NCBI GenBank assembly: GCA_030390025.1
Contig: CM059432.1
Span: 12,276,001 to 12,340,000, forward strand
Reading direction: 5' to 3'
Source: Squalus acanthias
Lineage: Eukaryota
Length of the DNA stretch: 64,000 bases
Each line of letters starts with the position of its first letter. Within the stretch, counting starts at the first letter, position 1. This document shows positions 12,661 to 13,806 of this stretch, piece after piece. Under the pieces are notes generated by a model that searched no databases, was not told the DNA's origin, and saw only the letters and a list, made by a program, of their open reading frames with translations. A program made the translations under genes and the position numbers.

Positions 12661-12946
12661 TGTGGAGATGCCGGTGTTGGACTGGGGTGGACAAATGTGA
12701 GAAGTCGCACAACACCAGGTTATAGTCCAACAGCTTTATTTGAAATCACAAGCTTTCGGAGCGCTGCTCCTTCGTCAGGTGAAGTGAAGAGATGCATATA
12801 GTCACAGCATATATAGTCAAGAGAACACTGCCAGGTGACTACAGTTAATCTTTCCAACTGCCCTTTATCACACCTCGGCAGAGAGACAATCACGGCAATC
12901 AAAGGTGTGGATGGTGTCCAAACAGGTCAGTCAGGAAGTCATTACA
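12661..12946 (-). mobile_element. Penelope-like pseudo-LTR, family B
   Basis: Contains a hammerhead motif; shares its terminus with 13638-13806; candidate TSD tgtagatga (12652-12660, 12947-12955). Confidence 0.75.
12746..12782 (-). ncRNA. Minimal type-I hammerhead ribozyme motif (family B), intact core
   Basis: tcac-CTGACGA-a-ggagc-agc-gctcc-GAAA-gctt-gtga. Confidence 0.75.
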
Positions 12947-13637
12947 TGTAGATGAGGATGAGGATTTTACGTTCAGTTAGTTGGAGGTGGGGAGTAGTGA
13001 GGATTGGATCGCGGGTGAGCAGAATGCAGGAGACAGAATTCTGGGTTGCCTGGAGTTTGGAAGGTGGCGGTCAGGACGCCAGCACGGAGGGCGTGGGAGA
13101 GATCGAGTCAGGGGAGACAGAAGGTGTGGATCAGGGTTTTTGGAGGCAATGGACGAAGGTAGGGATGGAGGCAGGCAGGCATTGCAGAGATGGAAACAAG
13201 CAGTCTTGGATATAGAGCATGGGTTAGAGAACATGGGGTTTGAAGTGGGGTCACAAAGACTGCTGAAGAGTGTACAATCTAGTAGAGCCTGAGAGCGGTC
13301 CTGTCGGGAGCTGATTCTTGCATTTCAGGCCACATCAAATGCTTCATAGGATTACATGGGATATACGGCGCAGAAACAGGCCATTCGGCCCAACCAGACC
13401 ATGCCAGCGTTTATGCTCCATTCGAGCCTCCTCCCGTCTTTCTTCATCTAAATCTATCATCATAATCCACTATTCCCTTCTCCCTCATATGCTTGTCCAG
13501 CCTCCCCTTAAATGCATCTATACTGTTCGCTTCAACCACTCCCTGTGGTAGCGAGTTCCACATTCTCACCACTCTCTGGGTAAAGAAGTTTCTTCTGAAT
13601 TCCCTATTGGATTTCTTGGTGACTATCTTATATTGAT

Positions 13638-13806
13638 CATGATGCGGAGATGCCGGTGTTGGACTGGGGTGGACAAAAATGAGAAGTCGCACAACACCAG
13701 GATATAGTCAGGTGCCTTTACCTGACGAAGGAGCAGCGCTCCGAAAGCTCGTAATTTCAAATAAAACTGTTGGACTATAACCTGGTGTTGTGCGACGTCT
13801 CATTTT
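13638..13806 (+). mobile_element. 169-bp fold-back Penelope-like insertion (family B)
   Basis: TSD tatcttatattg(a/g)t (13624-13637, 13807-13820); ~34-bp inverted arms enclose a hammerhead. Confidence 0.8.
13718..13754 (+). ncRNA. Minimal type-I hammerhead ribozyme motif (family B), intact core
   Basis: ttac-CTGACGA-a-ggagc-agc-gctcc-GAAA-gctc-gtaa. Confidence 0.75.

What the first reader, a model, noticed from the sequence alone, without database searches (positions are those of the whole stretch)
12746..13754. Compensatory base-pair change between two family-B hammerheads
Seen: the copies are identical in core and stem II, but stem I is UCAC:GUGA in one and UUAC:GUAA in the other (C-G to U-A covariation). 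The cleavage triplet is CUU versus CUC, both valid NUH. Family A uses different sequence (AGUU:AACU, AGGUC:GACCU, AACGUU) in the same geometry, including an extra A after A9. Inference: the fold, not the sequence, was under selection in the source elements.
Basis: partly seen in the sequence, partly recalled or inferred. Interest (0 to 1): 0.7.

Follow-up and report, generated by a model that had tools for sequence, protein, structure and literature searches.

The report
Penelope retroelement minimal hammerhead relics
The two motifs have the full layout of the known "minimal hammerhead" self-cutting RNA and likely sit in dead end-fragments of Penelope-like jumping genes; the paired base change between them is real, but sequencing data do not show it as a family-wide covariation, so the finding is ordinary.

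Summary
The sequences are as described. B1 (12782-12746, minus) has stem I UCAC:GUGA and triplet CUU; B2 (13718-13754, plus) has UUAC:GUAA and CUC; family A has the same geometry with other stems. They match the minimal type I hammerheads of Penelope-like elements (PLEs) published in 2014, including the extra base after A9 and the palindrome in place of helix III. B1's exact stem I is printed there for lamprey. B2 is a head-to-head insertion with a 13-bp target duplication and a tail on one arm, as PLEs make.

The covariation is not established. In whole-genome contigs the 3' half (GUAA) is a subfamily variant (8.0% and 4.8%), but its 5' partner is under 1% in the one same-species run where all variants are accounted for. 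Alignment clipping could hide it. Chance gives such a pair in 2-4% of two-copy comparisons. Selection on the motif does show otherwise: common variants avoid core and stems (0 of 32 positions against 4 of 5 free ones), and 8 of 11 pairs covary across families.

Cleavage is untested. The scan has noted this motif class before, in this genome and others.

The parts
12746..12782 (-). B1 minimal type I hammerhead motif (stem I UCAC:GUGA, triplet CUU; predicted cut between 12750 and 12749)
   Evidence: cut site inferred from standard hammerhead numbering
12657..13344 (-). B1 element: likely the 5'-truncated 3' end (pLTR) of a Penelope-like element; hammerhead, AATAAA 7 nt downstream, then a tail ending at 12657
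   Evidence: 3' end at 12657 is the commonest loose end in all 4 runs; AATAAA; 5' limit approximate, taken where another repeat starts; no Pfam domain in its frames
12657..12692 (-). About 36-nt optional tail: family copies end either at 12657 or near 12691-12698
   Evidence: table 7; PLE 30-40 bp tail described in PMC8557442 and PMC11167929
13718..13754 (+). B2 minimal type I hammerhead motif (stem I UUAC:GUAA, triplet CUC)
13716..13807 (+). B2 right arm: hammerhead, AATAAA, ends without the tail (equivalent to B1 12784 down to 12693; 7 differences in 92 nt)
13639..13714 (-). B2 left arm: inverted copy of the element end with the tail but lacking the hammerhead body; its inner 8 nt match B1 12774-12781
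13625..13637 (+). Left copy of a 13-bp target-site duplication (1 mismatch to the right copy)
   Evidence: uninterrupted copies of the host repeat at 6083-5928 and 44101-44258 carry the stretch once
13808..13820 (+). Right copy of the target-site duplication
13345..14010 (-). Host repeat interrupted by B2; looks like the 3' end of a CR1-type LINE (recalled, no Pfam hit)
17327..17363 (-). Family A minimal hammerhead, intact core
60892..60928 (-). Family A minimal hammerhead, intact core
14723..14759 (+). Family A copy with A9 changed and the palindrome broken
49542..49578 (+). Family A copy with G8 changed

Best explanation
B1 and B2 are minimal type I hammerhead motifs that likely lie in inert, truncated end-fragments of a very abundant Penelope-like retrotransposon family, and their stem I difference is likely a subfamily variant on the 3' side plus a rare or private change on the 5' side. 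In the active parent element the motif would sit in both pseudo-LTRs of a tandem transcript. It has no helix III of its own, so two copies would pair through the 4-nt palindrome (AGCU in family B, ACGU in family A) and cut the precursor after the NUH triplet, probably with help from the element's protein (inferred from the literature). These two genomic copies face opposite ways, so no single transcript carries both in sense, and each is predicted to lack a partner. Shown here: motif anatomy, insertion anatomy, variant frequencies. Inferred: PLE origin, cleavage, dimer use, inertness.
For: Anatomy matches the 2014 consensus (CUGANGAH, G..C helix II, GAAAN, palindrome, NUH) and the four recurring features listed there. 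The lamprey PLE motif has the same stem I as B1, and the sea urchin one contains it. Metagenome contigs L001/L002 hold one element whose hammerhead is 35/39 identical to B1; its reading frames match proteins with a reverse transcriptase domain (P0002, PF00078 E 5.6e-8) and a weak GIY-YIG hit (P0001, E 0.0086, below cut-off). B2 is head-to-head, has a target duplication and has the tail on one arm only, as described for PLEs. Pairs of min-HHRs on opposite strands are described. 5,879-29,914 contigs per run lay on the stretch in 3 organisms. 5 of B2's 7 differences from B1 are common variants in organism A (8-68% in X3); the 5' stem I change is not among X3's 18 places at 1% or more. CpG changes hit G12 and C11.1 in 4-10% of depth, as expected of decaying copies.
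Against: No PLE reading frame was found in the window, and L001/L002 share only the 39-nt motif with B1, so PLE origin rests on anatomy. Depth at 12780 is only 55% (X3) and 27% (X5) of that at 12747, so contigs clipped near the partner site could hide a linked variant. X5 has one unlisted G>A place at 1% or more that could be the partner. A private hit on exactly the compensating base is itself unlikely (about 1-2% for a given copy, my estimate). An uncompensated GUAA copy has no stable stem I in the folding model, which sits awkwardly with the conservation seen elsewhere. Nearest-neighbour energies do not favour the double hammerhead over two open monomers (-16.3 against -21.1 kcal/mol for B1).
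Confidence: 0.75

Rival explanations
1. One reading: a source subfamily carries both changes (UUAC:GUAA), B2 is an ordinary copy of it, and the pair is true covariation. The 5' variant is missed because that subfamily's contigs are clipped or truncated near 12781.
For: B2 has both changes. The GUAA half is a real subfamily variant (89 and 65 contigs). Without the partner stem I is not predicted to form. Other stem positions are nearly invariant. 45-73% of depth is lost between the two sites.
Against: The partner is below 1% in X3 against 8.0%. Variants further upstream (12787, 12794, 12802) are detected, so the region is visible for many copies. No loose-end class at 12780-12784 is among the 6 listed for X3 or X5 (558 not shown). 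B2's own left arm keeps the ancestral base at the equivalent position (weak, 1 nt at a junction).
Confidence: 0.2
2. Two-step compensation: a GUAA subfamily amplified with a mismatched stem I, and a smaller descendant source (under about 1% of copies) restored the pair; B2 comes from that descendant.
For: Fits both marginal frequencies and B2's state; fits the unlisted G>A place in X5. Hammerhead mutants did not impair insertion in vitro for an anole PLE (PMC11167929), so a mismatched source could still spread.
Against: No second copy with both changes was seen; linkage could not be read from any call.
Confidence: 0.25
3. The two copies are a domesticated regulatory ribozyme pair acting on a host transcript.
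For: Both cores are intact and they lie within 1 kb.
Against: Opposite strands; no helix III. B2 is nested in another repeat with a clean target duplication. No protein domain in 102 non-repetitive frames of the window (short exons would be missed). Monomeric min-HHR showed no cleavage in 2014.
Confidence: 0.02
4. The repeats are non-LTR retrozyme monomers or another non-autonomous PLE derivative rather than truncated autonomous PLEs.
For: No PLE frame in the window. Retrozymes are reported to derive from PLE pLTRs and to occur in one chondrichthyan (bioRxiv 10.64898/2026.07.22.740005).
Against: No tandem array holds a hammerhead here. The motif is the minimal, not the canonical, type. Tail, inversion and target duplication are PLE features.
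Confidence: 0.08

Closest known systems
Minimal hammerheads (min-HHR) in pLTRs of metazoan Penelope-like elements (Cervera and de la Pena 2014, PMC4209133)
   Same: Type I topology; CUGANGA plus one extra base; G10.1-C11.1 in family B; GAAA followed directly by a palindromic 15.2/16.2 pair and NUH; 4-5 bp helix I; many dispersed single copies in several families; pairs on opposite strands. The Petromyzon motif has helix I UCAC:GUGA like B1.
   Different: Helix II is 5 bp with a 3-nt loop (shorter than the 7-8 bp given for S. mansoni, within the range of Fig. S3). Family A has A10.1-U11.1, a minority state also seen in Fig. S3. I saw no cartilaginous fish among the Fig. S3 rows.
PAc (Poseidon) PLE of Anolis carolinensis (Frangieh et al. 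2024, PMC11167929)
   Same: Hammerhead near the element end; a 30-40 nt tail defined by two alternative ends; AT-rich target.
   Different: PAc was tested in vitro (protein-assisted cleavage, not needed for insertion); nothing is tested here. In PAc the ORF starts inside the hammerhead; not established for family B.
Rfam hammerhead families (Hammerhead_1 and relatives; names recalled)
   Same: Conserved core and NUH rule.
   Different: No match at gathering score over the window or at E up to 10 over 12500-15000; canonical motifs have a helix III and loop 1/loop 2 contacts, which these lack.
Non-LTR retrozymes of animals (bioRxiv 10.64898/2026.07.22.740005; PMC7229834, listing only)
   Same: Type I hammerheads related to PLE pLTRs.
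   Different: Retrozymes are tandem arrays; these copies are dispersed or inverted.

Membership tests
Metazoan PLE min-HHR | Core CUGANGA, GAAA and NUH | tested here: met
   B1, B2 and 2 of 4 family A copies
Metazoan PLE min-HHR | One extra nucleotide between 9 and 10.1 | tested here: met
   A at column 12 in 7 of 7 aligned copies; feature listed
Metazoan PLE min-HHR | G10.1-C11.1 pair | tested here: met
   G-C in B1, B2 and L002 (3 of 7). Family A has A-U (3) or G-U (1), so it departs from the >80% consensus
Metazoan PLE min-HHR | No helix III loop; palindromic 15.1-16.1 | tested here: met
   Self-complementary in 6 of 7 copies; the exception is the decayed 14723-14759 copy
Metazoan PLE min-HHR | Short helix I without a defined loop 1 | tested here: met
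   4 bp, all cells paired
Metazoan PLE min-HHR | Lies in the pLTR 3' of an RT plus GIY-YIG frame | tested here: inconclusive
   No such frame in the window; seen only for the look-alike in L001/L002
Metazoan PLE min-HHR | Self-cleavage as a dimer, weak in vitro | not testable with these tools
   All 24 runs offered are contigs, which cannot show RNA ends; energies uninformative
Penelope-like element insertion | 5' truncation with head-to-head inverted end, optional 30-40 bp tail on one side, target duplication | tested here: met
   B2; two preferred family ends about 36-41 nt apart; features as
Rfam hammerhead models | Score at or above gathering threshold | tested here: not met
   0 matches; none of the 4 weak matches is a hammerhead
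Non-LTR retrozyme | Tandem units each with a type I hammerhead | tested here: not met
   None of 17 tandem-repeat rows overlaps a motif

The most novel reading that the evidence does not exclude
This family records a compensatory mutation in two steps: a source element with a mismatched stem I still made 5-8% of all copies in this species, and a later source (B2's parent) restored the pair. With thousands of dated genomic copies, that would let one measure how strongly a PLE needs its ribozyme in vivo, which is an open question.
Probability: 0.2. Interest if true: 0.4.

Novelty: new member of a known kind. Interest (0 to 1): 0.12.

Why it matters
It matters little as it stands: PLE minimal hammerheads, their families and their compensatory changes were described in 2014, and these two copies look like relics. 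The residual value is as material. The role of the ribozyme in PLE transposition is unsettled (not needed for insertion in vitro, absent from Naiads). A huge family whose common variants avoid the catalytic core argues that source elements were selected to keep it, and the one exception (GUAA) is a natural test case once copies are phased.

Tried and rejected
Own-genome search: no genome is held, so no genome-wide covariance model could be built.

Exact-pattern scans: family B in metagenome contigs gave 2 loci of one element; families B and A in viral contigs gave 0 and 0; family B in prokaryote genomes gave 0.

My early idea that CUU versus CUC is CpG decay was rejected: CUC is a 22-26% variant in organism A and near 0 in the other two organisms.

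Folding z-scores of the four intact motifs are unremarkable (-0.68 to -1.68). The dimer energy model did not favour the double hammerhead; it omits tertiary contacts, so I draw nothing from it.

Pfam found nothing in L002's frame alone, in two frames beside the motifs or in 102 non-repetitive frames of 75 aa or more. tblastn of P0001/P0002 against the window gave one 18-aa hit at E 0.4. No host gene was identified, so the sense strand is unknown.

Literature: 'hammerhead ribozyme + shark + Penelope' gave 1 paper whose 'shark' is only the name's origin; 'Penelope-like + elasmobranch + genome + hammerhead ribozyme' gave 0. Lunse et al. (dimer cleavage) is not held.

Full report
Observation. A descriptor scan of both strands finds four intact type I hammerhead motifs in the 64-kb window: B1 (12782-12746, minus), B2 (13718-13754, plus) and two family A copies (17363-17327 and 60928-60892, minus). 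Allowing one core mismatch adds two more A copies and one unrelated weak match at 21619-21567, which I dropped. B1 and B2 differ at 3 of 37 positions: both sides of one stem I pair (C-G against U-A) and position 17 (U against C). One hundred Markov simulations gave a mean of 0.0 such motifs against 4 real ones (thresholds chosen after seeing the hits). Rfam gave no hammerhead match.

What the motif is. After GAAA come only two bases before UH, so helix III cannot close; positions 15.1-16.1 form a palindrome in 6 of 7 copies. This is the min-HHR of Cervera and de la Pena 2014 (PMC4209133; I read parts 1-2 of 4 of the main text and parts 1-2 of 3 of the supplement). [quoted passage not shown] It also reports pairs on opposite strands 100-700 bp apart, no cleavage by a monomer and weak cleavage by dimers. 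Its Fig. S3 shows helix I UCAC:GUGA for lamprey and AUCAC:GUGAU for sea urchin. Dimer cleavage is also the title claim of Lunse et al., which I saw only as a reference and one sentence in a review (PMC6765202, passages).

What carries it. B1 is followed by AATAAA and a tail. In four whole-genome contig sets (X3 and X5 of organism A, X13, X20; 4 of 24 runs offered; X3 may be the window's own sample) 5,879-29,914 contigs lay on 12650-12840. Family copies end mostly at 12657, or near 12691-12698, which gives the optional 30-40 nt tail known for PLEs (PMC11167929, parts 1-2 of 4; PMC8557442, passages). B2 is a 170-bp head-to-head insertion (13638-13807): left arm with the tail, right arm without it, 13-bp target duplication with one mismatch, inside a repeat whose other copies in the window carry the target once. 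Inverted ends with 8-10 bp duplications and palindromic junctions are described for rotifer PLEs (PMC3846280, passages). No PLE reading frame is present in the window. The protein link is indirect. Two metagenome contigs of one element carry a motif 35/39 identical to B1, 3' of a frame 44-47% identical to proteins with RT and weak GIY-YIG hits. That the genome is a shark's is my recollection of these repeats plus unchecked notes of this scan; I did not test it.

Is the pair covariation? With two copies, no: random placement of 8 substitutions gives a compensatory pair in 2.1-3.7% of trials, and the scan has notes on 214 windows of this genome. The contig table gives single-site frequencies weighted by depth, without linkage. 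The 3' change (12747) is at 8.0% in X3, 4.8% in X5, 0.15% in X13 and 0.38% in X20. The 5' partner (12781) is not among the 40 rows shown (12 hidden). The per-run counts of places at 1% or more match the shown rows exactly for X3 (18 of 18) and for all G>A places of X13, so the partner is under 1% there. X5 has one hidden G>A place and X20 has two. Full linkage would predict a depth of about 139,000 in X3 against a bound of about 17,000. Five of B2's seven differences from B1 are common variants; the 5' stem change and one tail change are not, and B2's left arm has the ancestral base at both equivalent places (the first is at a junction and weak).

Against that reading: depth falls to 55% and 27% between the two sites, variants near alignment ends are not listed, a private hit on exactly that base is improbable per copy, and the mismatched form has no predicted stem I. 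I put family-wide linkage at about 0.2, a small compensated sub-lineage at about 0.25 and a private chance change at about 0.55.

Was the motif under selection? Probably yes, on better evidence than the pair. Non-CpG variants at 10% or more in any run hit 0 of 32 core and stem positions, 4 of 5 free positions (N7, H17, loop II) and 11 of 79 flank positions. At 5% the counts are 1, 4 and 15, the one being the GUAA change. Caveats: hidden rows, related species, only contigs at least 80% alike, and position labels from standard hammerhead numbering (recalled, consistent). CpG changes at G12 and C11.1 reach 4-10%, the mark of decay after insertion. Across families, 76 of 77 cells pair and 8 of 11 pairs change on both sides, including the palindrome's inner pair. 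This is one family contrast counted many times, and common descent of A and B cannot be shown from 37 nt. So within family B sequence is conserved; 'fold, not sequence' holds only between families.

Mechanism. Inferred from the literature: in a tandem PLE transcript two motifs pair through the palindrome and cut after NUH, likely protein-assisted. In the anole element cleavage needed the protein, was not needed for insertion in vitro, and no RNA ends were found at the site. B1 and B2 face opposite ways, so they cannot complete each other in one transcript. Energy calculations did not favour the dimer, and no raw RNA reads were available, so activity is untested.

Verdict. The headline covariation is unproven and more likely not family-wide. 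Interest 0.12.

Noticed in passing
window 13707-13726: B2's left arm jumps from the tail straight to the first bases of the hammerhead through a 3-nt microhomology, skipping about 49 nt that hold the ribozyme body and AATAAA; the junction forms a 7-bp hairpin. One X20 loose-end consensus (10 reads, agreement 0.58) contains a similar join, so it may recur.
   Followed up: partly
window 12781-12785: Many copies leave the B1 sequence right at the 5' edge of stem I (X20 loose ends at 12781 and 12783, 89 and 85 contigs; several strand-change joints at 12785), not at the predicted cut site 12749/12750. B2's right arm also starts at the equivalent of 12784.
   Followed up: no
window 14010-14096: A second piece 88% identical to 13058-13130 lies in the opposite orientation on the far side of the LINE-like repeat; it may be another fragment of the family B upstream region.
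   Followed up: partly
window 12762-12765: One-base insertions in loop II at about 2-6% in organism A, and loop substitutions at 13-15% in X20: loop II is the variable part of the family.
   Followed up: partly
window 1255-1386, 1695-1861, 2299-2400, 6590-6669: Further family A fragments that lack a complete hammerhead.
   Followed up: no
L002 1-109 and 983-1091; L001 1-362: The metagenome element itself has inverted internal pieces (RT frame on the opposite strand in L001; a 109-nt inverted repeat in L002), the complex arrangement typical of PLE insertions.
   Followed up: partly
window 40391-40665 and 33672-34053: A 30-bp minisatellite (9.2 copies, 95% matches) and a degenerate CCAGC array.
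   Followed up: no
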